A stretch of DNA of 64,000 nucleotides, from the NCBI GenBank assembly GCA_964434475.1, contig CAYSVS010000001.1:22820-86819 (forward strand). The letters run 5' to 3'. This document shows positions 1,123-63,878 of the stretch, piece by piece (within the stretch, counting starts at the first letter, position 1; each line of letters begins with the position of its first letter). The stretch is from an uncultured Methanosarcinales archaeon. Its GTDB lineage: Archaea; Nanobdellota; Nanobdellia; Woesearchaeales; CAYSVS01. The translations under genes were made by a program, and so were the position numbers. The notes under the pieces are model-generated. The model was not told the origin of the DNA, did not search any database, and was given only the letters and a program-made list of their open reading frames with translations.

Positions 1123-1264
1123 TTCTCCTGAATAGTATTTATAGGATATGTATTTTATCGTCAATCAAAAAGTTTATAAATTGCGTGGTTTTTCAGGTTA
1201 AAATAATTGATATATTGATAATAATTTGTTATCATATTATTGGATGATGAGGGGTTGGTTTTTG

Positions 1265-45219: not shown

Positions 45220-45343
45220 TTACTTATATCGGGCTGATATATTATCGATAAAAAGACATACAACAAATAACAACATTTATAAATGGTACGCGATTTAATC
45301 TTTATTTAATAATGTTAAAACATTATAAAGGGAGGGTTTGAAT

Positions 45344-48300: not shown

Positions 48301-50602
48301 AGCAGGAAATGTTGGAACCAGCTCAAGAGTAATCAAGATAGATACAGTAAAGCCAAGCACAACATTGACATATAATAATACTGATGCAGAAACAACTTGG
48401 GTTAATACTCCTGTAAATATCACTATAACAGCAACAGATGTAAATTCAGGTGTCAATTATACACAATGGAGAAATTCAACATCCGGCTCATGGATAACTG
48501 TTGAAGGAAGCTTTGTATTGTCAAACAATTTGACTGACAATATTATATATTATAGGTCAGTTGACAATGCGACAAACACTGAGACAATCAAACAGAAAGA
48601 TTTCTACTATGATGGAACAGCTCCTGTTGCGCCTTCGATAACATTAAGCTCAGATACTGTGGGATTGGGCGGAAGTGTTGTAGTTGATGTAACTAGTTCA
48701 GATCTTTTGTCAGGATTAGCTTCAACAGCTGATTATGAGATAAATGGTTCAACTGGAACTTTAGATTATTCGAACGGAAAATATTCTGGAACAGTAACAG
48801 CTCCAGCAATAGCAGGAACATATAATTTGACAATCACAGTAAGTGATGAAGCAGGAAATACTGTAAGTGATGCAAATTCTCAGATAACTACAAACGGTAC
48901 AGTAGCTTCAATCAGTGTAAATAAGGCTAATGGAACTGTTGTAGAAAGCGGAAGCACAGTTACGATTACTATCGATGGCGATAATGCAACCGGTTGGTAT
49001 AATTATACTGGTGGATCAGAAACGAATATTTCTGGAACTTCAGCATCAGTTACAATATCTGGCACAGGATTGTTTAATCTGTATGTGTATGCGAACAATA
49101 CAGCAGGATTGGTAAATCAAAACTATACTTATGTTATTGATGCAGATGCGCCTTTAACAACTGTTACAGCTCCTACAGCAGGTTCAGAGATTAACGCAAC
49201 AGATACAATAACAGCAACAGCAGACGATCAAACTGGAATTGGTGTTGAAAATGTTGTTTTCACTGTAACTAAAGTAGGAAGCACAACTGCTTATAAAACA
49301 TTTACAGATACAACATCGCCATATACATTTACATTAGATACTTTTGCAGCAAAAGACGGTAATTATAGTATAGAAGCTGTAGCAACAGACTACTTTAGCA
49401 ATAGCAATACATCAACAATCTATGTGGTGATAAATAACACAGGAGTATCGACTACAACAAATGCAGACGCATCTGGTGAGGTTGATTTTTCAGCAACAGA
49501 TTTTGCTACAGTATTGGATGTGATTACAGGATTGAATGATAGTGTTAATGTAGTGGTTTCAGTTCCACAAAGTGTTGCTAATGCTCCAAGTACAACGACG
49601 CAATTAGAGGAAACAATACACACTTTAAATATCACAACAGATACGCCAGCAACATCAAGAGTTTATTTTACTATTTTGACAACTACATTGGATGATTTGA
49701 GCATAACTTCTCCATACTCTAATCTGTATGTTTATGTAGATCATGGAAGTGGAGTAGAAGAAATAGGTGCAGCAACATTTGTTGATACAGTAACAAAGAA
49801 CGGTAATGAGTATAAGAGATTCTATTTTGAAACCGATGAATACAGTACATTTTTCATAGGTAAGAAAGCTGTAGTGGTACAAGAAGATGATGAAGAAACT
49901 TCAACCACTGGCGGAACAACAGGCGGGTTAAGCACACTATCAACAGCAAAAGGAATATCTGTGACTCATATGTGGAATGTTATCAAGCCTTCTATTCCAA
50001 GTTCGATGAGTATAACAAACGATGATATAGCATTCAGGAAAGTTGTATTCACTGTAACTGAAGAATCTCAAAATGTAAGGATGGAGATAACATCTTTGGC
50101 AGAAAAGCCAGAAACAACTGTTGAGATTATTGAACCTGTATTCCAGTATCTTGAAGTTGATACTACTAACCTTGATGATGTCAATATCAAATCAGCAAAG
50201 ATAAGCTTTGAGATCAAGAAATCGTGGTTGAACGGTAACAATAAAGAAAGCGTAAGGCTTTTAAGGTTCAGTGATGGCAAGTGGAATGAACTGACTACAG
50301 AATTGACCAATGAAGATGGCACTTATGTTTATTATGAAGCAACTACGCCTGGTTTCAGCTATTTTGCGATAGTGTCTAAAAAGATAGCAGAAGAGCCTGT
50401 AGAGACTGTGCCAACAGAAGAAGTTGAAGAAGAGGTTGAGGTTGAAGAGGAAGAAGAAGCTGCTCCTGAAACCAAGCCAATCGAAGCTCCTGTAACAGAA
50501 GAAGGAATGAAAGGCTGGTTTATAGTGATTGTGTTGGTTGTAATCGGTGTAGCAGCTTATTATTGGTACAACAAGCCAAAGAAAAGGAAGAATAAAAAAT
50601 AG
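45344..50602 (+). CDS. Large T/N-rich secreted surface protein (about 1752 aa) with C-terminal TM anchor and basic tail
   Basis: The probable start is the ATG at 45344, 8 nt after an AGGGAGGG SD; the track opens at 45338. Signal peptide MRKAILLFTMLILSSVLVSAVP. Many Ig/fibronectin-like T-rich repeats with dense sequons. Acidic linker, then GWFIVIVLVVIGVAAYYWYNKPKKRKNKK at the C-terminus. A PGFSYFAIV motif lies ~60 aa before the TM. Confidence 0.8.
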   Translation: MRKAILLFTMLILSSVLVSAVPINYDGYVKSPIGIGIPTMNVSVYNTAAGYSGTRQQWKVTSANPASLGRFTGSYMTDDGATNADIIRIYSYNESNLALGYAFLLTNLANVTSSNHGNLTINRSFYPLFTNVASPQNDTEYATQNINFTFTVQDDVTEDFEEDMSCAFYLGYGTSPSLNTTNTTVDSGDTVTFVKTALLDGGYNWYINCTNNRSVSNVTSVYEFDIDTKAPRYDQIQVSGSIVNISDNVNIWANWTDTFLDSAVLIVNDTDNETKDISMSDMNWNLTNFTFTPASSFVKQNITFNIRANDTLGNLNTTTNAYVYFRDDVKPDVVLINPANQSSKSSTSITFNYSYSDNVAGNLNCSLYLDMGYNESQTVAATTTMQYGAFAKTVEDNDDHEWYVVCVDSDGNSNITPTNEFTVDSSAPIVNLNETQSSTVNQGDKIHYWANWTYGINQIDVAILYVNGQMANMTYSVGSNNLVNLSYTTNNNQAGSTLSLYMWVNDTAGLEANSGIITVGVNDTIAPSVVPNLPIDNYNTSSLTMNWSAIVTDNNVAPNISCNISVAGNINHIGSGFTNGSIVSTGDQTVPTGVNLWNFTCWDQAGNTATSATRTLNVDRQASLVFAQGYNDSTVGLTKSILVYANVTDNFLGIKNVSIKYGSNAPVAMTPTGDTYSVATTAGALGISTTDNHSVTIIAYDTVNNVNNTEVIYIDVDASMPIVHTVLANETYVKSTDLINFSAFVNDTSLVSVTLNGTNMTGDMVNGGIFYTINSTSDFGCEDIEGTCTFFVSASDTVGNVNDTESVTVTVDDIAPRVTSFSVVDADNMVMNTTSVVVRANITDASVASVTVNGTAMSQSGDYYQVTTTMAALGCAPDGECTLGITATDAAGNINSTETTTITVDTTAPTMNLTYPGNNTWRKVTTPKLNYSFVDAYSDNASCTLSINSVDFTSTVNNDTQKQVYVTGASLSSGSTYTWTVACTDLAGNVGTSSRVIKIDTVKPSTTLTYNNTDAETTWVNTPVNITITATDVNSGVNYTQWRNSTSGSWITVEGSFVLSNNLTDNIIYYRSVDNATNTETIKQKDFYYDGTAPVAPSITLSSDTVGLGGSVVVDVTSSDLLSGLASTADYEINGSTGTLDYSNGKYSGTVTAPAIAGTYNLTITVSDEAGNTVSDANSQITTNGTVASISVNKANGTVVESGSTVTITIDGDNATGWYNYTGGSETNISGTSASVTISGTGLFNLYVYANNTAGLVNQNYTYVIDADAPLTTVTAPTAGSEINATDTITATADDQTGIGVENVVFTVTKVGSTTAYKTFTDTTSPYTFTLDTFAAKDGNYSIEAVATDYFSNSNTSTIYVVINNTGVSTTTNADASGEVDFSATDFATVLDVITGLNDSVNVVVSVPQSVANAPSTTTQLEETIHTLNITTDTPATSRVYFTILTTTLDDLSITSPYSNLYVYVDHGSGVEEIGAATFVDTVTKNGNEYKRFYFETDEYSTFFIGKKAVVVQEDDEETSTTGGTTGGLSTLSTAKGISVTHMWNVIKPSIPSSMSITNDDIAFRKVVFTVTEESQNVRMEITSLAEKPETTVEIIEPVFQYLEVDTTNLDDVNIKSAKISFEIKKSWLNGNNKESVRLLRFSDGKWNELTTELTNEDGTYVYYEATTPGFSYFAIVSKKIAEEPVETVPTEEVEEEVEVEEEEEAAPETKPIEAPVTEEGMKGWFIVIVLVVIGVAAYYWYNKPKKRKNKK

Positions 50603-52212: not shown

Positions 52213-53142
52213 TTATTCAGTCAATCCTTCGCAATCATAGATAGATATATGTTCTTGGTCAAGTCTGAACCATATAGGTAATCCTTGTATATTGTAGTAT
52301 TTAGGGTTTAGATCAGAGAAATATATGTAATCTACCACTGACTTTTCTTCAATATTTATGTTATTATTTACAAGATTCTCAATATTCACTAGGCTTTCTA
52401 TCCCCTTATCATTTGCAGTTGTTTTTCCTTCTAACCTGTCAAGATAGCTTGGCCCTAAATCTGATGCTATGTAGTGTTGGCTTAGTGTATGATTCAATAG
52501 TTTTTCTGTTTTGTTATTTTCAATAAAATTGGAGTATGGGCTTTTTTTGATTATATTTGGAACTTTGCCTAACGTATTAATAGAGTATAAAGGATCTTCT
52601 AATCCTTTTATGCTTATTTTGCTTTTGATTGTTTTATTGTATCTGAATTCTGCAATATCACTTTTGTCTTTTAATTCTATATCTGCTTTTAATCTTATTT
52701 CAACGAACCAAGGATCGGTTTGATATATATCTATAGAGATTATGCTTATATTTGAGATAATATTCATATAATCTGCTTTTTCTTTTACTTTGTTAAGCCA
52801 TAGTGCTAGATTGGTATTGTTCATCATCCGAGATTCTTGCCCGTCTAATGTGCTGTTTATGAACAGTTCTTTAAAATCTTTATTGACATTGTCACTGAAT
52901 TCTCTTTTTTCTACTATGTTATCTGTTATTGATGTTAATGCTCTTGAACCTATTATTTCAGATGCTCTTTCTATGTCTCTTTCGAAATCTTCAATAAAGT
53001 AGTTCATTGTATTGACTCTTTTTTTGATAAGATCTCTATCTTTATCTTTTTCTTCGTTTAATGTAAAAGCTGTTAGCAGGAGTGAAACCAGTAAAATTGT
53101 GCTTACTGTAAAAAACATTGCTTTTTTATTTTTTAATGCCAT
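52213..53142 (-). CDS. Pilin-like protein (309 aa) with type IV pilin-type N-terminus
   Basis: N-terminus MALKNKKAMFFTVSTILLVSLLLTAF (basic residues then a hydrophobic helix). Last gene of the minus-strand pilin operon. Confidence 0.5.
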   Translation of the reverse strand: MALKNKKAMFFTVSTILLVSLLLTAFTLNEEKDKDRDLIKKRVNTMNYFIEDFERDIERASEIIGSRALTSITDNIVEKREFSDNVNKDFKELFINSTLDGQESRMMNNTNLALWLNKVKEKADYMNIISNISIISIDIYQTDPWFVEIRLKADIELKDKSDIAEFRYNKTIKSKISIKGLEDPLYSINTLGKVPNIIKKSPYSNFIENNKTEKLLNHTLSQHYIASDLGPSYLDRLEGKTTANDKGIESLVNIENLVNNNINIEEKSVVDYIYFSDLNPKYYNIQGLPIWFRLDQEHISIYDCEGLTE

Positions 53143-55742
53143 ATTCTAACCTCTGCTTTAGTAGGGCCTATCAGATAAGGTATGTTGCCTATATCTATCT
53201 GGTTTACGTTTATGTTCAAGTTTTGTATATTAAGATATAGCAATCCGTCATCATCAAAATCTAATGTTTTGAAAAATTCATATGTTGCAACATCTGTTGC
53301 ATCTTTTCTGTCATAAGATTTTTCCTTGAAATAGCAGTCTTTATCTCCTTTGTAATCATTAGGTATTTTTATTTCTGTTTCTTCACCATCTTCAAATTCC
53401 AGATGCCATCTACATCCTTCGCTTTTTGGCAGAACTTCAGTATATCTTATCTGCGGATAATATATTAAGTCATAGATTAATCTGCTTTTTTCCGGAATCT
53501 TGTTTTTTGATGATGTGCCTATATTAAGTGTAATCTGGTTATCTTCTTCTTTTTCTATATATTTTGTAGGTATGTTTATATGGAATGGATCGCCTAGTTC
53601 TGAATAAGGTAAATTATATGTGTCAATGTCATAAGTATCTATGTCATAGTTTGAGTTTTTTATGTTAGCAGTTTTTGTCCAATAGTCTTTTGAATATGAT
53701 GTTAAAGTTAGCTGTGTTATATCCATTTCTTCGGGTATGTATATACTGGAATTAGAGCTGAAAGGAGGCGTTTCTATGTTGAATAGTATTCCTTCTGGAT
53801 TTTTTTCTTCTTGATTTATTATCTCTATGTATGAATCAGGATATAATGCTGTTGGTTCATAACTGAAGTTTGTCTGGATTGTTTGTTTATTATAACTGAT
53901 ATTTGCTATGCTTTCTGCTATAGACTCATATATTTCGCTTAATTGTGAAGCATTGCTCGCGTCAAAATACTTGCCTTCATTACATGCCATCTGGCTTAAT
54001 GTAGATGCGTCTGCACTTTCTCCAAATCCTACTGTGTAGACGCTTATGTCTTCATCGCATGCTTCTTGTGCAGCTCTTATCGCATCTGTCTTTCCGTTTC
54101 CGCTTCCTCCATAGCATCTTATGTTTGCTTCTCCATCACTCATAACGACAATAAACCTTTTGTTTGTGCTTGATCCTATATTTTCCATGGCTCTTATTAT
54201 TCCGCAGCATATACAAGTTCCGTACCAAGAGTCCATATTATTTATGTGTTCTTTTAGTGTATTTATGTTATTGGTAAGATGAATCTCTCCTACTATTCCT
54301 TCAGGAAATTCTACGATATCCTGGCCACAAGGTTGTTCTACATAGCTTGAATAGTAAGGATATTCTGCGCTATATTCTACCAATCCTATGTTGTTGTTTT
54401 CATTTTCGAGTATGTTATCTATAAAATCAGTGGAAGCTTTTTTAGCAACGTCTATCCTTCTCTCTGCTTCATCTCTGCATTTTCCTGTCCTTATCCATTT
54501 ATATCCGCATGCATCTTGTCCTGCTTTATCAGGATAATTGAAATGCTGCTGCCATCTCCAATTTGTCATATAATCGTCTGGTTCGTTTATACAATATTCC
54601 ATACTGCCTGAGAGGTCGCTTGCCAGGATAACATCAGCAAATTCCTGATCTTGTGTTGTGATGTTCTTTATGCTTAATCTTATAGGCAATGTAGTGTAGC
54701 TGATATCTTCATAGTTAAATATGGTTTGCAGTTCGTTATCATCTATTATTATTGTTTTTTCTCCTTTTGGATTATCTTCATATACTGTCTTATTTCCTAT
54801 TCTCAGATATGTGTCATATGTGCTGTTTATATGGAGTTTGATATTCATCCCTTTGATATCTTTTGTATTTATGCCTGAATAATAATTTATGAAGCCTTTG
54901 ATGCCTTTGAAATATTGTTTTGTCTCAGTATCTGGTTTGAAAAATATGTCTGAAACATTGTAGCTTATCTGGAAAAACCCTCCTGCGATGTATCCTTTAT
55001 TCTGGAATTTAATTTCTATGGTGTTGTTTCCTTTTGTTATTAAATCTAGTTTGTCTTCTGGAACCTGGTAGTAAAAATCTTCTTTTTCACACTCTTTGGC
55101 AAGATATTTGTTTATGTACAGTTCAAAATCTTGATCAGTATCAAATTCAAAATCTGCTGATTTTATAGTATCTGCATTCATAGGAATTCTTATATTGAAT
55201 GTTATGTTTCCATTGCCTATGTATCCTCCAAAATATTCTCTCTTGTTTTGTGTATAATCCTTTATCTCTGTCATAGAAGATCTTGCGATATAACCTTTTA
55301 TGCTTTTGTTTTTCATTATTCCGGTTATATGTCTTGTTCCTGAGATAAGTTGTTTTGGGGTTTTTTCAGATGTAGAATATATCTTTTCCTCTTCTAAAAA
55401 AAATCCATAATCCATCTGCGGAGGTATGATGTTTTTTGAGATGTTCTTAAAAATGTTTTTCGCGATATTTTCTCTATTTGTAGACCAAAATATTACTGTC
55501 TGTTCCAATACAGAATTATCTGTTTCGGTAATTATCTTATCCTCTATAAGTTTGTTTATATACTCATTGTTTGTCTCGTTTATTTTCATCATAGACAAGC
55601 TGTTTATCATATCCTGTGAGTAGAATTCAAGTTGAGATTTTGGATTCTCATGTATATTGAAGCTTGTTAATGCTGTTATACTTATCATTATCAATGTAAG
55701 TGCAAAGATTCCGTCTGCTGTGAAAAACTGGGCTTTTTTCAT
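53133..55742 (-). CDS. Large pilin-like protein with von Willebrand factor A domain (candidate pilus-tip adhesin)
   Basis: N-terminus MKKAQFFTADGIFALTLIMISITAL. vWA MIDAS motifs ILASDLSGSMEY, FIVVMSDGEANI, VYTVGFGESAD at roughly 53970..54620. 869 aa. Confidence 0.65.
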   Translation of the reverse strand: MKKAQFFTADGIFALTLIMISITALTSFNIHENPKSQLEFYSQDMINSLSMMKINETNNEYINKLIEDKIITETDNSVLEQTVIFWSTNRENIAKNIFKNISKNIIPPQMDYGFFLEEEKIYSTSEKTPKQLISGTRHITGIMKNKSIKGYIARSSMTEIKDYTQNKREYFGGYIGNGNITFNIRIPMNADTIKSADFEFDTDQDFELYINKYLAKECEKEDFYYQVPEDKLDLITKGNNTIEIKFQNKGYIAGGFFQISYNVSDIFFKPDTETKQYFKGIKGFINYYSGINTKDIKGMNIKLHINSTYDTYLRIGNKTVYEDNPKGEKTIIIDDNELQTIFNYEDISYTTLPIRLSIKNITTQDQEFADVILASDLSGSMEYCINEPDDYMTNWRWQQHFNYPDKAGQDACGYKWIRTGKCRDEAERRIDVAKKASTDFIDNILENENNNIGLVEYSAEYPYYSSYVEQPCGQDIVEFPEGIVGEIHLTNNINTLKEHINNMDSWYGTCICCGIIRAMENIGSSTNKRFIVVMSDGEANIRCYGGSGNGKTDAIRAAQEACDEDISVYTVGFGESADASTLSQMACNEGKYFDASNASQLSEIYESIAESIANISYNKQTIQTNFSYEPTALYPDSYIEIINQEEKNPEGILFNIETPPFSSNSSIYIPEEMDITQLTLTSYSKDYWTKTANIKNSNYDIDTYDIDTYNLPYSELGDPFHINIPTKYIEKEEDNQITLNIGTSSKNKIPEKSRLIYDLIYYPQIRYTEVLPKSEGCRWHLEFEDGEETEIKIPNDYKGDKDCYFKEKSYDRKDATDVATYEFFKTLDFDDDGLLYLNIQNLNINVNQIDIGNIPYLIGPTKAEVRIWH

Positions 55743-56203
55743 TTCCAGACATACACCCCTATGTTGATCAGATCCTTATCTAATATGCCTATCCTTTCAA
55801 TCTTAACCAGCTCTGTGGTTTCATCATAATCCTCTATTCCATTTATCTTTTCAGTTTCATTATCTTTTGATAGATATATGTAGAAATCAAATTTCATGTT
55901 AGTGATGTTTTTTAATCTGTTGTATTTAATATTTTTTAAGTACTTTAATTTTGTTTTGTTAATCTCATTATCCAGTATTCCTATCTGTTCTATGTTTTCT
56001 GTATTCCAATGTTCAGGATAACCTGTATCCATCAACATTTCAGATAGTCTTATTGCTTCGTTCTCAATTATGTTTACTGATTTCAGGCCTGAATCATAAT
56101 TATAGAAAAATATTGCTGCAACTAATGTAAAGAGCATCAATCCTATCATGAAATCGATGTAAAAAACCTGTGCTTTCTTATTGATTAATGATGACTTTTC
56201 CAT
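55739..56203 (-). CDS. Pilin-like protein (154 aa)
   Basis: N-terminus NKKAQVFYIDFMIGLMLFTLVAAIFF, a class III signal peptide-like sequence. Confidence 0.5.
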   Translation of the reverse strand: MEKSSLINKKAQVFYIDFMIGLMLFTLVAAIFFYNYDSGLKSVNIIENEAIRLSEMLMDTGYPEHWNTENIEQIGILDNEINKTKLKYLKNIKYNRLKNITNMKFDFYIYLSKDNETEKINGIEDYDETTELVKIERIGILDKDLINIGVYVWK

Positions 56204-56576
56204 TTTTTTTCTCTATCTTGTTTATCCCTTTTTCTAGCTCTCCTGTGAATCCTGCCAGTTTGATTTCCTGTTCAAGATTATTATCTAGGGTAACTATCAA
56301 ATATTCTGAGATTACTATAAAATTATATTCGTGATTGTCTATCTTTTCAGGTATTCTAAAATATCTTGTATATCCTTGTTTTGAATTTCTTGCTATATTT
56401 ATCTCCTGGTAAATATTATATGAAAAATCCTGTAATGCTTTATATTGCTTTTTTTGTTCTATGTCTTTGAACTGGCTATAGGTGAATGTTGAGAAAGTTA
56501 TAAGAATTAAGAATCCTACCGCTATCAACATCATGAATTCCATAGAGATCTGAGCTTTTTTTAACCGCTTATCCAT
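56178..56576 (-). CDS. Archaeal type IV pilin-like protein (DUF361-type class III signal peptide)
   Basis: N-terminus LKKAQISMEFMMLIAVGFLIL fits the QxSxExxxL motif of EppA/PibD-processed pilins. 132 aa. Confidence 0.6.
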   Translation of the reverse strand: MDKRLKKAQISMEFMMLIAVGFLILITFSTFTYSQFKDIEQKKQYKALQDFSYNIYQEINIARNSKQGYTRYFRIPEKIDNHEYNFIVISEYLIVTLDNNLEQEIKLAGFTGELEKGINKIEKKNGKVIINQ

Positions 56577-56968
56577 ACATAGTCTCCTCTAGATTCTATG
56601 CTGATTATATGCATACCTTCTTTTTCGTCGATGCTGCCCTGGAGATTGGCTTCAGAAAAGAATTCCATGTCGCTGATTCCTGCGTCTGTTTTTATCCTAA
56701 AGTTTATCTCGTTCTTCGATATTATTATATTATCTATGTTTTTAGGAAAGTTTATCTCTAATGTTGTTTTTGAAGGTTTTCCGTGGTAGTAAACTTCTTG
56801 TGCTGAGTTCACTATTGTAGTACCTATCTTATTTATGTGTTCTGAAATAATAGTATCTTCTGCTGTGGCAGAATACGATATGTATATGATGGTCAATGGT
56901 ATTATCAGTGCCATCGCTATCCCTACTAATAACAGATATTCCATGCTTGACTGAGACTTTTTCAACAT
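56561..56968 (-). CDS. Archaeal type IV pilin-like protein (DUF361-type class III signal peptide)
   Basis: N-terminus MLKKSQSSMEYLLLVGIAMALII is a perfect QxSxExxxL motif. First gene of the five-gene minus-strand pilin operon. Confidence 0.65.
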   Translation of the reverse strand: MLKKSQSSMEYLLLVGIAMALIIPLTIIYISYSATAEDTIISEHINKIGTTIVNSAQEVYYHGKPSKTTLEINFPKNIDNIIISKNEINFRIKTDAGISDMEFFSEANLQGSIDEKEGMHIISIESRGDYVWISG

Positions 56969-57058
56969 ATATTATAAATCTTATAGATTAGTATAAAAAG
57001 AATTGTAACCATTTTAAAATTAAAACACACATTTAAAAAGCTTAGTTGTTTAGTATTT

Positions 57059-57664
57059 TTGAATAGAGGGATAGTAATGAAAAAAAGGGGTGCAACTAAA
57101 AGTAGAAAGCATAATGCTAGTCATAAAAAGAAAGATAATATGCGAAAATCAAAAAAACCTACAAAAGTTTCTCTAAAAAGAAAACCTAAACCAAGTTCTA
57201 AAAAATCAATTACTAAATCAAGAAAGGAAACTAAAAAGCTAATAAATAAATCCCGGAAAAAGGTCAAAAAAAGTTTTAACAAGAACAAGGGAAAAAAATC
57301 AAAAGCTTCTGAAAAAGAGACAAAAAAACGTTCTGGGAAACGTTTATCTAATCGCAAAAGCAAAAAATCATCTAAACCATCTAAAAATTTCAACAGTCAA
57401 TACAAAAAACCTAAACACGCAAAAAAAAAGAGATCTAAGGTTATTAAGATAGATCTTTCTCATCTTGGAGCATATGAAACTGAACTCGATAAATTATTGG
57501 AGGAAGTGAACGAAAGAGAGAAAATAAGTGTAAGGCAGGTTGCAAAAGCTTTTGAAGTGCCTAAATCATTGGTAGAATATTGGGCAAGAATTTTAGAGCA
57601 GAAAGGATTGATCACTTTGCATTATCCATTGATAGGAAGTCCTAAATTGAGGAAGAAAAGATGA
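57059..57664 (+). CDS. Highly lysine-rich basic protein with C-terminal HTH-like domain (putative DNA-binding regulator)
   Basis: ~150 aa of K/S/R-rich low-complexity sequence, then SVRQVAKAFEVPKSLVEYWARILEQKGLITLHY. First gene of the plus-strand pilus assembly operon; its stop overlaps the ATPase start. Confidence 0.4.
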   Translation: MNRGIVMKKRGATKSRKHNASHKKKDNMRKSKKPTKVSLKRKPKPSSKKSITKSRKETKKLINKSRKKVKKSFNKNKGKKSKASEKETKKRSGKRLSNRKSKKSSKPSKNFNSQYKKPKHAKKKRSKVIKIDLSHLGAYETELDKLLEEVNEREKISVRQVAKAFEVPKSLVEYWARILEQKGLITLHYPLIGSPKLRKKR

Positions 57665-59157
57665 ATGTTGTCGAAGAGTATAAGGTTAATATTGATGATG
57701 TTGATGTGAAGGTAAAGATATTAGGCGGAAAAGGACACGCATTAAATTATAATCTTCAGTTAAAGGAGTTTAAGCCAGCAACAAAAGCTTTTATCGACGA
57801 GATAAGGGACGAGCTTGTACATCATGTAAAACTGAGCAGTTTTGAGATACTTGATTCTAAGGCGATAGCTGTTATCAAGAATAGGTTCAGGCAGAAAGCG
57901 AACGAATTAATTGAAAAAAAGCTTCCCCATGTTTCAATCAAAACTAGAAAGTATATAGTAGGATATCTTATACACGAGATGCTTGGGCTTGGTAAACTCG
58001 AGTTGTTGTTGGGAGATGAACATCTTGAAGAGATTGTAGTTAATTCATCTAAAGAGCCTTTGTATGTTTATCATAAGAAATACAAATGGCTTCAGACCAA
58101 TGTGAATATACCTCAAGAATCAAGTATACTTAATTTTTCAAATATAATTGCAAGAAGGGTAGGAAGACAGATAAATACTATGAATCCTTTGCTTGATGCT
58201 CATTTGGTATCAGGAGACAGGGCTAATGCTGTATTGTATCCTGTATCAAACAAAGGCAACCTTATAACTATAAGAAAATTTGCAAGAGACCCGTGGACTG
58301 TTGTTGAGTTTGTCAAGAATGGGACATGCAGCCCTTATATATTTGCATTACTCTGGACTGCTATCCAGTATGAAATGAATATACTTATCAGTGGAGGAAC
58401 AGCAGCAGGAAAGACCTCTATGCTCAATGTTCTTAGCGCTTTTTTTCCTCCTGCACAACGTATCATAAGTATAGAAGATACAAGGGAGATACAACTCCCT
58501 GAATTCTTGCATTGGGTTCCTTTGACCGCAAGGATAGAGAACACAGAAGGAAAAGGTTCTGTGTCTATGCTTGATCTGTTGATAAACTCTTTACGTATGC
58601 GTCCGGATAGGCTGATAGTGGGAGAAATGAGAAGAAAAAGGGAAGCTGAGGTCCTGTTCGAGGGTATGAATACAGGACATAGTGTTTATGCTACAATACA
58701 TGCAGACTCTGTTCAGCAGACAGTAAGAAGGCTTATCAATCCTCCAATAGAGTTGCCTGAACTTTTGCTTGAATCTTTGAACCTTAACGTTGTAATGTTC
58801 AGGGACAGGAAGACAGGTAAAAGGGTTATGCACCAGATAGGAGAGTTTATGGTAAAAGGAGGAAATGATGCTTATATAGAGCCGAACATACTTTACGAGT
58901 GGGATCCAAAGACAAAGAAACAAAGATTGATGCATAAAAGCTCAAGGTTATTCAAGGAATTGTCAAAACATACAGGGATGACTGTAAAAAGGCTTGAAAA
59001 AGAGATAAAGGATAAACAGAAGATAATAAAATGGATGGTCAATAAAAATGTAAAGGGCGTTAACGAGGTAGGAAAGATAGTCAAGGAGTATTATCTTAAT
59101 CATGATGCTCTTATGAAATTTGTCAACGCAAACAAAGATCCGAATACACTAAAATGA
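57661..59157 (+). CDS. Type IV pilus/archaellum-type assembly ATPase (FlaI/TadA/VirB11 superfamily)
   Basis: Walker A ISGGTAAGKTSML, Asp box IISIEDTREIQL, Walker B RPDRLIVGEMRRKREA, His box NTGHSVYATIHADS. Confidence 0.8.
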   Translation: MNVVEEYKVNIDDVDVKVKILGGKGHALNYNLQLKEFKPATKAFIDEIRDELVHHVKLSSFEILDSKAIAVIKNRFRQKANELIEKKLPHVSIKTRKYIVGYLIHEMLGLGKLELLLGDEHLEEIVVNSSKEPLYVYHKKYKWLQTNVNIPQESSILNFSNIIARRVGRQINTMNPLLDAHLVSGDRANAVLYPVSNKGNLITIRKFARDPWTVVEFVKNGTCSPYIFALLWTAIQYEMNILISGGTAAGKTSMLNVLSAFFPPAQRIISIEDTREIQLPEFLHWVPLTARIENTEGKGSVSMLDLLINSLRMRPDRLIVGEMRRKREAEVLFEGMNTGHSVYATIHADSVQQTVRRLINPPIELPELLLESLNLNVVMFRDRKTGKRVMHQIGEFMVKGGNDAYIEPNILYEWDPKTKKQRLMHKSSRLFKELSKHTGMTVKRLEKEIKDKQKIIKWMVNKNVKGVNEVGKIVKEYYLNHDALMKFVNANKDPNTLK

Positions 59158-60053
59158 ACAGATTAAATTTTTTTCTTTTGCCTGAAAGGATATTGAAAAG
59201 GTTTAGTCATTTATTTTTAGGCATAAGTGAAAAGATAGAAGGAAGCTTCAATTCTCTTGAACTGGACCTTAAACAATCAGAAATAAGGATAAATAAGATA
59301 GATTATATCTCTTATTCTCTTGCTTCGTCTTTTATCTTGTTTATCTTGTTGTTTTTGCTTTTTGCAGGATTGTTTGAATATTTTGGGCATAAGAATTATA
59401 TCTTTCTTTCTGTATTATCTTCCTTTTTTCTGATATTTCTTAATTTTTTAAGGATATTGAACTATCCTAGATTCATCACAAACAGAAGAGTGAAAAATAT
59501 TGAAAAGGATTTGTTGATAGTGTTGAGAAATATGTATGTGCAGGTAAAGTCCAACATACCTTTGTTCACTGTGATGGTAAATGTGGCGGGACAGGATTTT
59601 GGAGAGGTAAGCAAGGAATTCAAACGTATGGTAAAACAGATAAACTCAGGCATTTCTGAAGTAAAAGCTTTAGAGGAATCAGCTACAAACACACCTTCTG
59701 CTTTTTTCAGGACAGTATTATGGCAGATAATAAATGGGGTAAAGACAGGGGCAGATATATCTGTTGTTTTGAAAGATCTTATAGAGATGCTTTCAGGAGA
59801 ACAGGTTGATCAGATACAGGAATATGGAGCTTCGCTTAATTCACTTGCTTTATTTTATATGCTTTTAGTGATAATAATGCCTTCTTTAGCGATAACCTTT
59901 TTGATAGCTTCATCAGTATTTTTTTCAAAAGCGATTGTCACGACAAAAGCCTTGTTTTGGCTCTTGTATGTTCTGGTTGTTCTGTTCCAGATAATATTTT
60001 TAGGTATAATAAAATCAAAAAGACCTAGTTTGTTGAGGGATGAAAATGTATGA
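59154..60053 (+). CDS. TadB/GspF-like pilus platform membrane protein (single T2SSF-like domain)
   Basis: 299 aa polytopic membrane protein with a soluble helical insert between TM segments. Translationally coupled to the ATPase and to the next gene. Confidence 0.5.
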   Translation: MNRLNFFLLPERILKRFSHLFLGISEKIEGSFNSLELDLKQSEIRINKIDYISYSLASSFILFILLFLLFAGLFEYFGHKNYIFLSVLSSFFLIFLNFLRILNYPRFITNRRVKNIEKDLLIVLRNMYVQVKSNIPLFTVMVNVAGQDFGEVSKEFKRMVKQINSGISEVKALEESATNTPSAFFRTVLWQIINGVKTGADISVVLKDLIEMLSGEQVDQIQEYGASLNSLALFYMLLVIIMPSLAITFLIASSVFFSKAIVTTKALFWLLYVLVVLFQIIFLGIIKSKRPSLLRDENV

Positions 60054-61005
60054 TTTCATAGGGAGACTGTTTCCTGTATCTGTAAGGAAGAATATAGGTC
60101 AATTGTTGATGTATTCTGATATTGATATAGATACAGAGAGATATATAGGTTTTACTTTTTTGTTTGATATAGCTTTAAGTATTGTAATTACATTATTTCT
60201 AGGACTGTTTTTCAAATTCAATATGCTTATTGTATCTTTATTGTTTTTTGTATTGTTCGATATGATAAGCTATTTTACGCTCCATTTCAAAGCACAGTCA
60301 AAGTCGAAGTTTATTGAATCTATACTTCCTGATGCTTTAAGGCTTACAGCAGGCAACCTTAAGGCAGGAATAACTACAGATAAAGCTTTGCTTTTAAGCG
60401 CCAGACCTGAGTTTGGGCCTTTTAAAAAAGAGTTAATAAGGGCTGGAAAAGAGATAGCTACAGGAAAAGAGATAACCAAGTCTTTGATGGATATAACACA
60501 AAGAGTGAGGTCAGTGAAACTGAAACATGTTATTGAGCTTATTGTTTCTGGATTAAAGACAGGAGGTCAATTAAGCGATCTGCTGCAGCAAACAGCAGAA
60601 GATCTTACAAGGCAGAAACTTATCGAAAGAAAGATAAGGACAAACGTAAAGCTTTATGTCATATTTATATCTATAGCTATAGCTTTTGCGTCTCCTGTTT
60701 TATATGCTTTAAGCACTTTCCTATTGGAAGTTATGGCTGCAAAATTAGCTGCTATAGATCCTAGCGTTTTTTCTTTGATACAGTTTAGCACAGGTAAGAT
60801 GCTGGAGATAAGCTTTGTTACACGATATATAGTTATATCTATAGCGACTACTGTCGTACTGGGTTCTCTTGTGCTTGGACAGATAAGTAAAGGAGATGAA
60901 AAACAAGGAATAAAGAAGATACCTTTCTTGATACTTATTTCTTATGTACTTTTTTTCGTTGTGCTCTTATTTTTGAGAAGAATATTCGGTATGTTCTTGA
61001 TATAA
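60040..61005 (+). CDS. TadC/GspF-like pilus platform membrane protein (second half of a split FlaJ/TadC)
   Basis: 321 aa polytopic membrane protein. Position and topology are consistent with the second T2SSF domain. Confidence 0.5.
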   Translation: MKMYDFIGRLFPVSVRKNIGQLLMYSDIDIDTERYIGFTFLFDIALSIVITLFLGLFFKFNMLIVSLLFFVLFDMISYFTLHFKAQSKSKFIESILPDALRLTAGNLKAGITTDKALLLSARPEFGPFKKELIRAGKEIATGKEITKSLMDITQRVRSVKLKHVIELIVSGLKTGGQLSDLLQQTAEDLTRQKLIERKIRTNVKLYVIFISIAIAFASPVLYALSTFLLEVMAAKLAAIDPSVFSLIQFSTGKMLEISFVTRYIVISIATTVVLGSLVLGQISKGDEKQGIKKIPFLILISYVLFFVVLLFLRRIFGMFLI

Positions 61006-61166
61006 TCTTGATCATTAAAAATTTCGTAGAGTTTGAATGGTTTTTTTGAAAGTTATGGAATTTGTAAGCAGGGAATAAGTGCGCTTTTTTTATATTTTTA
61101 ATACCCAGTCTCATAAAAATCAGAGATTTTTAGGACACAAAAAATATTTTAATATTTTTTAGTATA

Positions 61167-61420
61167 TTGATTGATGGTCACGAACTGTTGACATAAATAG
61201 ATTGTATGTTGGTTGATGGTTACGAACTGTTCATAAATAGATTGTATGTTGGCTGGTGGTCATGAACTGTTGACATAAATAGATTGTATGTTGGTTGATG
61301 GTTACGAACTGTTGACATAAATAGATTGTATATTGATTGATGGTCACGAACTGTTGACATAAATAGATTGTATATTGGCTGGTGGTCACGAACTGTTGAC
61401 ATAAATAGATTGTATATGCT
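61167..61420. repeat. Six tandem direct copies of a ~42-bp unit (TTGATGGTCACGAACTGTTGACATAAATAGATTGTATGTTGG) upstream of the PurF-like gene
   Basis: Read directly: copies at ~61171, 61212, 61252, 61294, 61336, 61378 with few substitutions and one 2-bp deletion. No unique spacers. Confidence 0.85.
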
Positions 61421-61471
61421 ATGTGTTGAACAATAAGAATATATTTAAACAGGTTTTATGTTTTTTTAATC

Positions 61472-62989
61472 ATGTGCGGGATAATAGGGGTAATTTCTAA
61501 AAATAATAGAGAAGATTTGGGATTTCTTATAGCAGAAGGATTGTCGCAGATACAAAACAGAGGAGATGATTCAGCAGGAATAGCTGCGATAAAAAAGTTA
61601 CCCTTATCTCGAAGAGAGTTTGAGATGTATAAGCGGATTGCTGTAGAACATGTTGCAGATGATTTTAATCCTATGACTATTGTTAGGGATAAAGGAAGAG
61701 TAAGAAAAGTTTTTAAGGTAAAATCAGATCTAGAAAGTTTGGCAGGATTTATGGGCATTGGCCAGGTAAGATATCCTACAACAGGATATATAAATGAAAA
61801 TAAATGTGAAAGTTATCAGCCCTTGCATCTTGGAAACAAGAAGATTGCAATCGTACATAATGGAGATGTTCATAATTATGATAAGATAATGTCTGGATTT
61901 CATGGTCTTAGAAGGGCATCAACGAATGATCTAGAAGCTATATTGAACATATTCGCTAAAGAATTTTTTACGACAGCTGATTTTCTTAAGAGAGAAGATA
62001 GGATAACTAAGTCAGTAAAGGCAACAATGGAAACTATAGAGGGTACTTATTGCGTCGCTTCAGTTGTCAATAACTATGGCATTGTTGTTTTTAGGGATTC
62101 TGAAGGAAGAAGACCTTTATTTTATGGTGTGAGGACAAAAGGAAAAGAGATTACTGATTATGCTTTTGCGTCTGAAACTGTTGCACTAGAAAAAATGCTT
62201 TTTAAAGGAACATCTTCTAAAGAATTAAATGGGAGGGCTATGTATGAAGAAGTAAATCCTGGAGAGATGATATTCATATCAAAAGATTTTGAAGTGTTTA
62301 GAAAACAGATCAAAGAACCTGAGACCAAATTTTGTCCATTTGAAGCTGTTTATTTTCAACGTGCTGCATCTTTTGTAAACGATAAACGAGTTAAACAGAT
62401 AAGGAAAGATATCATTAAGTATATGTGGGACAGGTTTAAGACAAAATCTTCAAAAAAATATGATTCTATTTTTAATGATAAAGAAGATTATGTTATTGTT
62501 CCTGTACCAAGGACAGCTGAATGTGCGGCTGTTGAACTTTCCTCTTACGCAGGAATAAAATATTCTACAGCAATCGAAAAGAATCCTTTCTCTGGAAGGA
62601 TATTTCAACAGCCAACAAAGGAGCATAGAGAGATTGGAACAATAAGCGACCATTTTATCTATGAAGAAGAGGTTAGAGGGAAAAATATAATACTTATAGA
62701 TGATTCTATTGTGCGAGGAACTACTATGATAAACGATATAAAATATCTTCGTGATCTGGGTGCAGATACAATAAACGTATTTATTACATTTCCTGCAATC
62801 AAACATCCATGCTACCATGCAATCGATTTTCATACTGAGCAAGAACTGTTGGCCCATGGAAACAGCATACATAAGATTAAAAATATTCTTGGATTAAGCA
62901 GTACTGACTCTTTGACATATGCGACACAGAATGAACTTGAAAAAGCAATTGGTACCAAATATTTATGTAATCAATGCTATAAAGTATAG
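61472..62989 (+). CDS. purF: Amidophosphoribosyltransferase-like protein (class II glutamine amidotransferase + PRTase; PurF family)
   Basis: N-terminal MCGIIGV nucleophile Cys and a PRPP-binding ILIDDSIVRGTTM motif. 505 aa with a divergent middle region. Confidence 0.65.
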   Translation: MCGIIGVISKNNREDLGFLIAEGLSQIQNRGDDSAGIAAIKKLPLSRREFEMYKRIAVEHVADDFNPMTIVRDKGRVRKVFKVKSDLESLAGFMGIGQVRYPTTGYINENKCESYQPLHLGNKKIAIVHNGDVHNYDKIMSGFHGLRRASTNDLEAILNIFAKEFFTTADFLKREDRITKSVKATMETIEGTYCVASVVNNYGIVVFRDSEGRRPLFYGVRTKGKEITDYAFASETVALEKMLFKGTSSKELNGRAMYEEVNPGEMIFISKDFEVFRKQIKEPETKFCPFEAVYFQRAASFVNDKRVKQIRKDIIKYMWDRFKTKSSKKYDSIFNDKEDYVIVPVPRTAECAAVELSSYAGIKYSTAIEKNPFSGRIFQQPTKEHREIGTISDHFIYEEEVRGKNIILIDDSIVRGTTMINDIKYLRDLGADTINVFITFPAIKHPCYHAIDFHTEQELLAHGNSIHKIKNILGLSSTDSLTYATQNELEKAIGTKYLCNQCYKV

Positions 62990-63119: not shown

Positions 63120-63878
63120 ATGCTTAGCGTGAATATAGATCCTATACTTGTAGAAATAGGTTTTATACAGATAAGGTATTATGGGTTGGTTTATGTTTTG
63201 AGCTTTTTTTTGCTTTATTATCTTCTTAAGAAACAAAGAGTAAAACTTCAGCTTAAGGTAGAAAAACTTGATGCATTTATACTTTGGCTTATGATAGGAC
63301 TGCTAATAGGCGGAAGAATGATGCATTTTTTAGTTAATGATCCAAGTATGTTTATACAGCGTCCTTTGGATATTTTAAAGATATGGAATGGCGGAATGTC
63401 TTTTTTTGGTGCAGTGATAGGAGGAGGATTGGCTGGATTTCTTTTCTGCAAAAAGCATAAGCTTAATTTTTTGAAGATTGCAGATGTTGTGTCTATAGTC
63501 GGTACAATAGGCATAATTTTCGGAAGATTGGCTAATTTCATAAATCAAGAATTAGTAGGAACTATAACTGATGTTCAATGGTGTTTTAATTTTTCAGGAT
63601 ATACTGGCTGTAGGCATCCTTATCAATTATATGCTTGTTTAAGCCACATTATCTTGTTATTCATTGTTCTTTATATTGCAAGAATAAAAGATGAGAAAGA
63701 GCTTAAGGACGGTATTGTTCTTTTAAGTTTTGTATTTTTTTATACCTTATTCAGGTTCATAACAGATTTTTTTAGGTATGATCCTAGATTTTTTGGATTG
63801 ACTTCATGGCAGTATATAAGCATGGTCGTATTTTTCATAAGTTTGTTCTCATTATATATATATAGAAAAAAAGAATAA
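63120..63878 (+). CDS. lgt: Prolipoprotein diacylglyceryl transferase (Lgt)
   Basis: Lgt signatures: IRYYGLVYVLSF N-terminus, GGMSFFGAVIGGGLAG, FGRLANFINQELVG, RHPYQLYA. 252 aa, 7 TM. Confidence 0.8.
   Translation: MLSVNIDPILVEIGFIQIRYYGLVYVLSFFLLYYLLKKQRVKLQLKVEKLDAFILWLMIGLLIGGRMMHFLVNDPSMFIQRPLDILKIWNGGMSFFGAVIGGGLAGFLFCKKHKLNFLKIADVVSIVGTIGIIFGRLANFINQELVGTITDVQWCFNFSGYTGCRHPYQLYACLSHIILLFIVLYIARIKDEKELKDGIVLLSFVFFYTLFRFITDFFRYDPRFFGLTSWQYISMVVFFISLFSLYIYRKKE

What the first reader, a model, noticed from the sequence alone, without database searches (positions are those of the whole stretch)
61167..61420. Six tandem 42-bp direct repeats immediately upstream of the PurF-like gene
The unit TTGATGGTCACGAACTGTTGACATAAATAGATTGTATGTTGG is repeated six times head to tail. 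Copies differ by a few substitutions (TTGATGG/CTGGTGG, GTATGTTGG/GTATATTGG) and copy 2 has a 2-bp deletion. The array ends ~50 bp before the ATG at 61472. Each unit contains GTTGACATAAATAG, which is TATA-like. The array could be a set of iterated binding sites for a regulator, a replication-origin-like iteron block, or a promoter-multiplying element.
Basis: seen in the sequence. Interest (0 to 1): 0.55.

Follow-up and report, generated by a model that had tools for sequence, protein, structure and literature searches.

The report
Orphan 42-bp minisatellite upstream of purF
A real but apparently one-off block of six head-to-tail 42-bp repeats sits just upstream of the promoter of a purine-synthesis gene in an uncultivated DPANN archaeon. 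It is most likely a replication-slippage product, not an origin, a promoter multiplier or an RNA or protein gene.

Summary
Tandem Repeats Finder gives 61162-61417, period 42, 6.1 copies, 90% matches. A 26-nt core is exact in five copies against 0 expected by chance. The window is chromosomal DNA of a Woesearchaeota-like DPANN archaeon.

The array lies between the oligo-T end of a Tad/FlaI-like pilus operon and the BRE/TATA box of a probably leaderless purF-like gene, at -310 to -55 from the ATG.

Tests against specific roles:
- The units score no more than 0.4 bits (4.6 for the deletion copy) against this genome's own BRE/TATA profile. Real promoters score 9-15.
- There is no ORB match, no orc1/cdc6 neighbour and no GC-skew turn.
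- There is no Rfam hit, and the RNA folds no better than shuffles.
- The two open minus-strand frames have no homologue.
- The repeat is absent from every collection searched.
- Four orthologous purF loci have short upstream regions (48-110 nt) with no array.

The array is bounded by a 6-nt microhomology (GTATAT), the signature of microhomology-mediated tandem duplication.

Best reading: a lineage-specific minisatellite with no dedicated function (0.5). Main rival: phased binding sites for an unknown regulator of a weak purF promoter (0.25). That rival rests on substitutions clustering outside the 26-nt core (P≈0.02, post hoc). Interest is low.

The parts
61162..61417 (.). Tandem array: six 42-bp units (unit 2 is 40 bp) plus a 6-nt partial seventh unit. 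Units start at 61162, 61204, 61244, 61286, 61328 and 61370.
   Evidence: TRF period 42, 6.1 copies, score 414; register and variable columns.
61182..61207 (.). First copy of the 26-nt invariant core GAACTGTTGACATAAATAGATTGTAT. It recurs exactly at 61264, 61306, 61348 and 61390, and with a 2-bp deletion at 61224.
   Evidence: Five exact matches against 0 expected; all six substitutions lie outside it.
61162..61167 (.). Left microhomology arm GTATAT, the first 6 nt of the array.
   Evidence: Read directly from the sequence; the base before it does not continue the repeat.
61412..61417 (.). Right microhomology arm GTATAT, the partial seventh unit. After it the sequence diverges (GCTATG against TGATTG).
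   Evidence: the flank shows no significant similarity to the unit.
61436..61449 (+). Probable BRE/TATA core promoter of the purF-like gene (AGAATATATTTAAA). It starts at -36 from the ATG, the modal position in this genome, and implies a leaderless or near-leaderless mRNA.
   Evidence: Profile score 3.4 bits, weak against 9-15 for the training promoters. Orthologues carry TTTTATAA at about the same distance, -35 to -28.
61444..61457 (-). BRE/TATA-like match on the opposite strand (AAAACCTGTTTAAA). It shares the same AT-rich box and points into the array.
   Evidence: 7.2 bits, top 0.11% of window positions. Inference only; no transcript data.
61472..62989 (+). purF-like amidophosphoribosyltransferase gene (505 aa, MCGIIGV... 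N-terminus).
   Evidence: GATase_6/7 plus Pribosyltran domains; TIGR01134 236 bits, below its cutoff of 350; DPANN clade homologues.
60040..61005 (+). Upstream gene: T2SSF-domain (FlaJ/TadC-like) membrane protein, the last gene of a pilus module that starts at 57661.
   Evidence: Pfam PF00482.
61082..61100 (+). Oligo-T tract GCGCTTTTTTTATATTTTT, a likely archaeal terminator of the pilus operon. It would keep the array out of the upstream transcript.
   Evidence: Sequence. Inference from the known oligo-T termination signal of archaeal RNA polymerase.
61108..61160 (.). Two adjacent small hairpin-forming inverted repeats (14-nt arms 86% complementary; 10-nt arms 100% complementary) in a 77-78% A+T stretch just left of the array.
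   Evidence: the repeat finder pairs I2 and I5; GC 0.22-0.23.

Best explanation
This is a lineage-specific intergenic minisatellite with no dedicated function. A 42-bp stretch of spacer DNA lay between the terminator of a pilus operon and the core promoter of purF, bracketed by the 6-nt direct repeat GTATAT. It was duplicated by microhomology-mediated tandem duplication and then expanded to six copies by slippage or unequal recombination. Units later picked up six transitions and one 2-bp deletion, and diverged units were re-duplicated, giving the order A B C B A C'. Shown: the array, its boundaries, its uniqueness, and the failure of the promoter, origin, RNA and coding tests. Inferred: the mode of origin and the lack of function. 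By position, its only certain effect is to move everything upstream of -55 a further 214 bp away from the purF promoter. Any change in copy number would alter that distance in steps of four helical turns.
For: The array equals n units plus a 6-nt partial unit (GTATAT at 61162-67 and 61412-17). This is the layout expected from duplication between microhomology arms. That mechanism is reported as the dominant route to tandem duplications and repeats, archaea included (bioRxiv 10.64898/2026.02.28.708716). Borg tandem repeats are likewise flanked by partial repeats (PMC9879509). The flanks are not decayed copies. The repeat is an orphan. There is no other copy in 64 kb. There is none in GTDB species genomes, IMG/VR or JGI metagenomes, and none in plasmid or phage records. 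No protein resembles its translations. Four orthologous purF loci in related DPANN archaea have 48-110-nt upstream regions with a TATA box and no array. It is the only intergenic minisatellite in the window and the related loci. One copy carries a 2-bp deletion inside the most conserved segment and breaks the 42-bp phase, which suggests relaxed constraint. Each specific functional test failed: promoter profile, ORB, orc1 and skew, Rfam and folding.
Against: All six substitutions fall in a 16-nt span, leaving 26 nt invariant (P≈0.024 by permutation). That is not expected under uniform neutral decay, although the partition was chosen after seeing the data and the events may not be independent. 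Units differ by up to 5 of 42 positions, so the array has persisted for some time in a compact genome where tandem repeats should be lost easily. The purF core promoter is unusually weak (3.4 bits against 9-15), as expected for a promoter that depends on an upstream activator. With a single sample and no close relative, neutrality cannot be tested by copy-number polymorphism.
Confidence: 0.5

Rival explanations
1. The array is a phased set of binding sites for a sequence-specific DNA-binding protein that activates or represses purF. Each 42-bp unit offers one site, the 26-nt core. The sites sit four helical turns apart on one face of the helix. The last site ends 55 nt upstream of the ATG, next to a weak BRE/TATA box, where a bound activator could recruit TBP/TFB. 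Copy number would set the gain.
For: The invariant 26-nt core contrasts with a variable 16-nt linker (P≈0.024). The period is 42 = 4 x 10.5 bp. The position is -310 to -55, directly upstream of a core promoter scoring only 3.4 bits when the genome's promoters score 9-15 and orthologues carry consensus TTTTATAA boxes. Archaeal Lrp-type regulators bind clusters of helically phased sites and wrap DNA (PMC2995911).
Against: No regulator gene lies nearby. No further copy of the core or of any 13-mer of it lies upstream of other genes in 64 kb. The only dyad, GTCA-N8-TGAC, is broken in copies 2 and 4. Copy 2 has lost 2 bp inside the core, which shifts copy 1 out of phase. Reported archaeal Lrp spacings are two or three turns, not four. 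Orthologous genes manage without any array.
Confidence: 0.25
2. The array is transcribed. One version has a divergent promoter that shares the purF TATA region and fires into the array on the minus strand. This would give a repeat RNA or a small repeat peptide (60 aa, MSTVRDHQPIYNLF x4). The other version has the units acting as extra weak promoters for purF.
For: A minus-strand BRE/TATA match at 61457-61444 scores 7.2 bits (top 0.11%), better than the purF-directed reading. The unit length is divisible by three. Two minus-strand frames are open through the array while all three plus-strand frames are closed. Borg intergenic tandem repeats have been proposed as regulatory RNAs or de novo repeat peptides (PMC9879509).
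Against: Units score no more than 0.4 bits on the promoter profile on either strand, and only 4.6 for the deletion copy. RNA folds are no more stable than shuffles (z = +1.98 and +1.11). There is no Rfam match at or near any gathering score. The ORF is not on record as a called gene. No homologue of either frame exists among 5.8 billion proteins. Four of the six substitutions change the amino acid in the ATG frame, so there is no sign of purifying selection. The 2-bp deletion truncates both frames.
Confidence: 0.08
3. The array is a replication origin, or a plasmid-type iteron or centromere block. Direct repeats bind an initiator or partition protein next to the AT-rich stretch at 61084-61160, which would unwind.
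For: Six direct repeats in helical phase abut a 77-78% A+T segment with small hairpins. Some archaeal origins carry direct repeats with little similarity to the ORB consensus (ori-pHV1, PMC1868953).
Against: Almost all mapped archaeal origins adjoin orc1/cdc6. Here the neighbours are a pilus membrane protein and purF, and no scanned ORF in the window is Orc1/Cdc6, Rep or ParA/B. ORB consensus hits are at chance level and none is near the array. Cumulative GC skew shows no turn. The AT-rich stretch is no more than an ordinary intergenic region of this 32% GC genome. There is no similarity to plasmids or phages. The window is chromosomal, with aIF5B, eRF1, aIF5A and tRNA-Pro.
Confidence: 0.04
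4. It is an assembly artefact. The true locus has fewer or more copies, or the unit variants are strain differences stitched into one array.
For: The contig comes from a metagenome-assembled genome seen in one sample only. A k=31 assembly of the same run does not cross the array. Its left contig stops at 61155, 7 nt before the array, for no reason visible in the window.
Against: The k=31 contig L001 begins exactly at the first 31-mer unique to the junction, and the preceding 30-mer is shared by three units. The reads therefore contain both the repeat-to-repeat and the repeat-to-flank continuations, which means at least two tandem copies. The longest exact internal repeat is 50 nt, so each junction is unique to reads of 100 nt or more. 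The differences are all transitions, as expected for real mutations.
Confidence: 0.05

Closest known systems
Prokaryotic intergenic minisatellites / VNTR loci (for example mycobacterial MIRU, from my own knowledge; tandem repeats upstream of Mycoplasma hyopneumoniae genes, PMC5179023)
   Same: Head-to-tail units of tens of bp in an intergenic spacer, with slightly diverged copies. Lineage-specific, with no coding or RNA function evident. A possible side-effect on the downstream promoter.
   Different: Those families are defined by copy-number polymorphism between strains, and MIRU by many dispersed loci. Here there is one locus in one sample, so polymorphism is untested.
Tandem repeats formed by microhomology-mediated tandem duplication (bioRxiv 10.64898/2026.02.28.708716) and the partial-repeat-flanked tandem repeats of archaeal Borg elements (PMC9879509)
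   Same: The array equals whole units plus a short partial unit identical to the array start (6-nt GTATAT arms). It is intergenic, archaeal and absent from relatives.
   Different: Borg repeats are perfect, A-rich and pervasive in the element. This array is 90% matched, G/T-rich on the plus strand, and the only intergenic array of its kind (period of 15 bp or more) in 64 kb of chromosomal DNA.
Upstream binding-site arrays of archaeal Lrp-family regulators (Ptr2, Ss-LrpB, FL11; PMC2995911)
   Same: Several sites on one helical face immediately upstream of, or over, a BRE/TATA promoter. This arrangement allows cooperative binding or DNA wrapping.
   Different: Known sites are imperfect palindromes of about 13-15 bp spaced two or three turns apart. 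Here the units are 42-bp direct repeats without a conserved dyad, and no regulator is identified.
Archaeal replication origins with ORB / mini-ORB repeats (PMC1868953)
   Same: Repeated elements in a long AT-rich intergenic region.
   Different: There is no orc1/cdc6 neighbour, no ORB consensus and no G-string. The repeats are strictly head-to-tail rather than dispersed or inverted around a DUE. There is no skew change.
Iterons of plasmid and phage origins and partition sites (from my own knowledge)
   Same: Direct repeats at an integral number of helical turns next to AT-rich DNA.
   Different: Iterons are usually 17-22 bp and lie beside their rep or par gene on a mobile replicon. Here the context is chromosomal housekeeping genes, and there is no sequence match to 72,556 plasmids or 50,697 phages.
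Tandemly repeated promoters of haloarchaeal rRNA operons (from my own knowledge; not found in the paper library)
   Different: There each repeat carries a functional promoter. Here the units fail the genome's own BRE/TATA profile.

Membership tests
Minisatellite / tandem repeat of slippage or MTD origin | Head-to-tail copies of one unit without spacers | tested here: met
   TRF period 42, 6.1 copies, 90% matches; register shown.
Minisatellite / tandem repeat of slippage or MTD origin | Array bounded by microhomology arms (whole units plus a short partial unit) | tested here: met
   GTATAT at 61162-67 and 61412-17. The chance of a 6-nt match is about 7e-4 from base composition (my estimate). 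The flanks are otherwise unrelated.
Minisatellite / tandem repeat of slippage or MTD origin | Absent or single-copy at the orthologous site in relatives | tested here: inconclusive
   Four orthologous purF loci lack it. They are only 52-54% identical in protein and not syntenic, so the ancestral single-copy site was not seen.
VNTR | Copy number varies between strains | not testable with these tools
Archaeal replication origin | Adjacent orc1/cdc6 gene | tested here: not met
   The neighbours are a T2SSF protein and purF. No Orc1/Cdc6 domain was found among the ORFs scanned (those of 120 aa or more, minus a few overlapping ones). Logan contig L001 shows 3 kb further downstream: purF, lgt and a HypA-like gene.
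Archaeal replication origin | ORB / mini-ORB consensus (GTTCCAGTGGAAAC...GGGGG) | tested here: not met
   14 hits with up to 3 mismatches against 15.6 expected, none within 7 kb of the array; consensus from PMC1868953.
Archaeal replication origin | [quoted passage not shown] | tested here: inconclusive
   61100-61189 is 77-78% A+T against 68% for the window. Intergenic DNA here is generally this AT-rich.
Archaeal replication origin | Strand-composition switch | tested here: not met
   Cumulative GC skew rises steadily across 46-64 kb. Skew is a weak signal in archaea.
Plasmid/phage iteron or centromere block | Cognate rep or par gene adjacent, on a mobile replicon | tested here: not met
   Chromosomal context (aIF5B, eRF1, aIF5A, tRNA-Pro) with no Rep/Par domains; no blastn match in plasmids or phages.
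Archaeal promoter (BRE/TATA), multiplied | Each unit matches the organism's BRE/TATA signal | tested here: not met
   14-nt profile from 17 window promoters. Units score -0.3 to 0.4 bits (deletion copy 4.6) against 9.1-15.1. TATA alone scores 2.4 against 4.9-10.2.
Archaeal promoter (BRE/TATA), multiplied | Transcription starts about 25 nt downstream of each box | not testable with these tools
   No transcript data.
CRISPR array | Repeats separated by unique spacers | tested here: not met
   Units abut directly. The only CRISPR-DR hit is outside the array at E=0.5, 26 bits against a gathering score of 41.
Structured non-coding RNA | Match to a known family, or folding beyond chance | tested here: not met
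   No Rfam hit at gathering score. The best sub-threshold hits are 15-26 bits against 41-80 required. z = +1.98 (minus strand) and +1.11 (plus strand).
Repeat-protein gene | Open frame with homologues or signs of purifying selection | tested here: not met
   Two minus-strand frames are open (60 and 52 aa). The ORF is not a called gene on record, there is no homologue at E<=10, and 4 of 6 substitutions are non-synonymous.
Regulator-binding site array (Lrp-type or other) | Conserved recognition core repeated in helical phase | tested here: inconclusive
   A 26-nt core is invariant in 5 of 6 units (P≈0.024, post hoc) and the period is 42 bp. However, copy 2 is deleted inside the core and is 40 bp long.
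Regulator-binding site array (Lrp-type or other) | Dyad symmetry of the site; two- or three-turn spacing (Lrp family) | tested here: not met
   Only GTCA-N8-TGAC is present, and it is lost in copies 2 and 4. Spacing is four turns against the two or three reported (PMC2995911).
Regulator-binding site array (Lrp-type or other) | An identified protein that binds it | not testable with these tools
   No candidate gene lies near the array; the rest of the genome is not available.

The most novel reading that the evidence does not exclude
The array is a copy-number-tunable cis-regulatory module of a DPANN archaeon. Six sites, four helical turns apart, would bind an unknown direct-repeat-binding protein that drives or silences a leaderless purF gene with a degenerate BRE/TATA box. 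It may be coupled to a divergent transcript that reads the repeats from the shared TATA region. This would be one of the first regulatory elements described in DPANN archaea, and an upstream array with a longer period than known archaeal Lrp-type sites.
Probability: 0.2. Interest if true: 0.45.

Novelty: new member of a known kind. Interest (0 to 1): 0.2.

Why it matters
It matters little as it stands. It documents a clean example of a microhomology-bounded minisatellite in a streamlined, uncultivated DPANN archaeon, at a site where it could change the spacing upstream of a purine-biosynthesis promoter. If the conserved 26-nt core proved to be a protein-binding site, it would give a rare handle on transcription regulation in DPANN archaea, for which almost no cis-elements are known. 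It would also provide a natural strain-typing (VNTR) marker for this lineage. A by-product is a usable BRE/TATA profile for this genome (AAAAnnTTTATAAA starting near -36), which indicates mostly leaderless mRNAs.

Tried and rejected
- **Promoter multiplication.** Rejected with a BRE/TATA profile learned from the same window.
- **Bacterial sigma-70 promoters or intrinsic terminators in the region.** None found, and the organism is archaeal.
- **ORB/origin.** Rejected on the neighbours, the consensus search and the skew.
- **Plasmid or phage iteron.** No blastn match.
- **CRISPR.** No spacers.
- **Structured RNA or C/D-box sRNA.** Nothing in Rfam at gathering score, or convincingly at E<=10. Folds are no better than shuffles.
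- **Repeat peptide on the minus strand.** No called gene and no homologue.
- **Flanks as decayed extra copies, or a unit derived from the purF promoter.** Alignment scores are no better than shuffles.
- **Resemblance to the lgt promoter.** The unit's TAAATAGATTGTAT resembles the lgt promoter's TAAATAGTTGTAT. I judged this chance-level for an AT-rich 64-kb window.
- **21-bp half-period (TRTTGAY at offset 21).** 7 of 21 matches by eye, about the chance level.
- **Regulon search.** 13-mers of the unit with up to 1 mismatch gave four scattered hits and nothing upstream of genes.
- **Searches for the repeat elsewhere all came back empty.** These were a protein-seeded scan of GTDB genomes for purF relatives; exact 24-mer scans of genome, viral and metagenome contigs; and a paired-core pattern scan of metagenome and viral contigs.
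- **Contig look-ups.** Looking up the upstream gene with the ORF-finder start failed. The ATPase look-up succeeded instead.
- **Corrected memory.** I recalled that Ss-LrpB boxes are four turns apart. The Lrp review gives two or three turns.

Full report
**1. The observation**

The sequence at 61162-61417 is a tandem array of a 42-bp unit. Tandem Repeats Finder reports 6.1 copies, 90% matches, 1% indels and score 414. This is by far the strongest intergenic repeat in the window.

Put in register, the units start at 61162, 61204, 61244, 61286, 61328 and 61370. They are followed by a 6-nt partial unit.

The 26-mer GAACTGTTGACATAAATAGATTGTAT is exact in five units, against 0.00 matches in 100 shuffles. 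Unit 2 has lost the GA of TTGACA.

Six other columns vary, and all changes are transitions. They define three unit types in the order A B C B A C'.

No 18-26-mer of the unit recurs elsewhere in the 64 kb, even with three mismatches.

**2. Is it an assembly artefact?**

The same purF gene is found on a contig from an independent k=31 assembly (Logan) of run SRR7048224. That contig begins at window position 61388.

This position is the first 31-mer unique to the array/flank junction. The 30-mer before it occurs three times in the array. This is the break a de Bruijn graph must make if the reads contain both repeat-to-repeat and repeat-to-flank continuations.

The contig carrying the upstream genes ends at 61155. 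That is 7 nt short of the array, for a reason I cannot see in the window.

The longest exact repeat inside the array is 50 nt. Reads of 100-150 nt can therefore place every unit. I could not check the copy number against reads.

**3. Context**

The window is chromosomal DNA of a DPANN archaeon with 32% GC. It encodes:
- aIF5B, eRF1, aIF5A, a DRG-type GTPase and tRNA-Pro;
- an AglB/STT3 oligosaccharyltransferase;
- giant surface proteins.

The purF-like protein's nearest relatives are 45-57% identical. Where they are named, the names are Woesearchaeota, Nanoarchaeota or 'archaeon'.

Upstream of the array lies a pilus module of a FlaI/TadA-like ATPase and two T2SSF proteins, ending at 61005. It is followed by oligo-T tracts and two small hairpins.

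Downstream lie the purF-like gene (61472-62989, MCGIIGV...) and a bacterial-type lgt gene.

**4. The real promoter**

Upstream regions of genes in the window share the motif AAAAnnTTTATAAA. It most often starts 33-39 nt before the ATG.

Archaeal transcription starts about 25 nt downstream of the TATA box (established knowledge). The motif position therefore implies mostly leaderless mRNAs.

purF has such a box at exactly -36 (AGAATATATTTAAA, 61436-61449). It scores only 3.4 bits, whereas the 17 training promoters score 9.1-15.1.

Orthologous genes in four related archaea carry consensus TTTTATAA boxes at about the same distance. Their upstream regions are only 48-110 nt long and contain no repeats.

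The array thus lies wholly upstream of the core promoter, from -310 to -55.

**5. Tests of specific functions**

*Promoter multiplier.* On either strand the units score -0.3 to 0.4 bits on the 14-nt profile. The 'TATA-like' CATAAATA scores 2.4 bits on the TATA part alone, against 4.9-10.2 for real boxes, which is only the top 1.7% of all 8-mers. Only the deletion copy reaches 4.6.

*Origin.*
- No ORF scanned with Pfam is Orc1/Cdc6, Rep or Par.
- The ORB consensus quoted in PMC1868953 gives 14 hits with up to 3 mismatches, against 15.6 expected. None is near the array.
- Cumulative GC skew has no turn.
- The adjacent 77-78% A+T stretch is ordinary for intergenic DNA here.
- blastn against 72,556 plasmids and 50,697 phages finds nothing.

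*RNA gene.* There is no Rfam match at gathering score, and only noise at E<=10. Both strands fold less stably than their shuffles.

*Coding.*
- The plus strand is closed in all three frames.
- The minus strand is open in two frames, of 60 and 52 aa.
- The 60-aa ORF is not on record as a gene.
- Neither frame has any homologue at E<=10 among 5.8 billion proteins.
- Four of the six substitutions change the amino acid in the ATG frame.
- The 2-bp deletion truncates both frames.

*CRISPR.* There are no spacers.

**6. Distribution**

The 24-mer core is absent from one genome per GTDB species, from IMG/VR and from JGI metagenomes. A looser paired-core pattern is absent from the last two.

The organism's proteins form clusters of size one and come from a single sample. 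Comparative evidence on the array itself is therefore unavailable.

Within the window and the related loci I fetched, it is the only intergenic array with a period of at least 15 bp and three or more copies.

**7. Origin**

The array is six units plus GTATAT, and GTATAT is also its first six bases. The base before the array and the bases after the partial unit do not continue the repeat. The flanks show no significant similarity to the unit.

This is the footprint of duplication between two 6-nt microhomology arms 42 bp apart, followed by expansion. A recent preprint argues that this mechanism dominates tandem-duplication and tandem-repeat birth across life, archaea included (10.64898/2026.02.28.708716). 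Partial-repeat flanks are also a hallmark of tandem repeats in archaeal Borg elements (PMC9879509).

Each unit type occurs twice and one unit looks recombinant. This indicates continued turnover after the units diverged.

**8. What argues for function**

All six substitutions lie within 16 consecutive columns, leaving 26 columns invariant. A permutation test gives P≈0.024 for such clustering. However, the partition was seen before it was tested, and linked changes may be single events.

The period equals four helical turns, so all cores face the same side of the helix. The core promoter is weak, as expected for an activator-dependent gene. Archaeal Lrp-type regulators do use phased site clusters (PMC2995911).

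Several points weigh against this:
- Lrp-type spacings are two or three turns.
- No dyad is conserved; GTCA-N8-TGAC is lost in copies 2 and 4.
- One core carries a deletion that also breaks the phase.
- No second locus carries the motif.
- No regulator gene is nearby.

A BRE/TATA-like match on the minus strand (61457-61444, 7.2 bits) points into the array. It leaves a small chance of a divergent repeat transcript.

**9. Verdict**

Two of the three proposed roles, origin and promoter multiplier, fail direct tests. The third, regulator sites, remains possible but thinly supported.

| Reading | Confidence |
|---|---|
| Lineage-specific minisatellite born by microhomology-mediated duplication, with no dedicated function; at most a spacing effect on a weak purF promoter | 0.5 |
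| Regulator-site array | 0.25 |
| Transcribed repeat | 0.08 |
| Copy-number or assembly error | 0.05 |
| Origin or iteron | 0.04 |

It is a new instance of a known kind of element, and interest is low (0.2). The most novel reading still open is a copy-number-tunable upstream array in a DPANN archaeon. I give it a probability of about 0.2, and it would be of moderate interest if true.

Noticed in passing
window 1226-4384 (+): A 1052-aa ORF joins an STT3/AglB oligosaccharyltransferase (residues 150-679) to a C-terminal PPIC-type (parvulin) peptidyl-prolyl isomerase domain (residues 918-1020). This looks like an unusual fusion.
   Followed up: no
window 63120-63878 (+): A bacterial-type prolipoprotein diacylglyceryl transferase (Lgt; PF01790 191 bits, TIGR00544 152.8 against a cutoff of 118.9) sits in an otherwise archaeal (DPANN) genome, directly after purF.
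   Followed up: no
window 52213-61005: A pilus locus. On the plus strand are a FlaI/TadA-like ATPase and two separate single-T2SSF-domain membrane proteins (299 and 321 aa), a Tad/Epd-like layout. On the minus strand, running divergently, are an 869-aa VWA protein and three small proteins without Pfam hits that might be pilins.
   Followed up: partly
window 29288-44566 (+) and 45338-50602 (+): Giant ORFs of 5092 and 1754 aa carry DUF11 and Big_13/Big_7 domains. The first contains an in-frame 285-bp x 3.2 tandem repeat at 42234-43150. These look like typical DPANN surface proteins.
   Followed up: no
window 61472-62989 (+): The purF-like protein scores 236 bits on TIGR01134, below the equivalog cutoff of 350. 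It belongs to a DPANN-specific clade that is 45-57% identical within itself and only 31-35% identical to the next-best hits, including bacterial PurF. In archaeon AR3 its orthologue lies near purH, purN, folD and glyA, so a role in purine synthesis is plausible.
   Followed up: partly
window 61436-61457: One AT-rich TATA region has BRE-like A-runs on both sides. The minus-strand reading AAAACCTGTTTAAA scores 7.2 bits, and the purF-directed reading scores 3.4. It may be a bidirectional promoter.
   Followed up: partly
window-wide upstream regions: The genome's promoters share AAAAnnTTTATAAA starting about 33-39 nt before the start codon, which implies that most mRNAs are leaderless. A few genes (23541, 45338) have the box about 63-68 nt upstream, followed by a GGTG/GGAGG-like Shine-Dalgarno sequence.
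   Followed up: partly
L002 end = window 61155: The Logan contig carrying the pilus genes stops 7 nt before the array, inside the hairpin AAAAAATATT-TT-AATATTTTTT. All 31-mers there are unique in the window. The cause is unknown; low coverage or a k-mer shared elsewhere in the metagenome are possibilities.
   Followed up: partly
L007/L008 3039-3145: A related Woesearchaeota-like contig has a 42-bp-period, 2.6-copy, A-rich repeat at 70% matches. It lies inside a 426-aa ORF without Pfam hits and is unrelated in sequence to the array studied.
   Followed up: no
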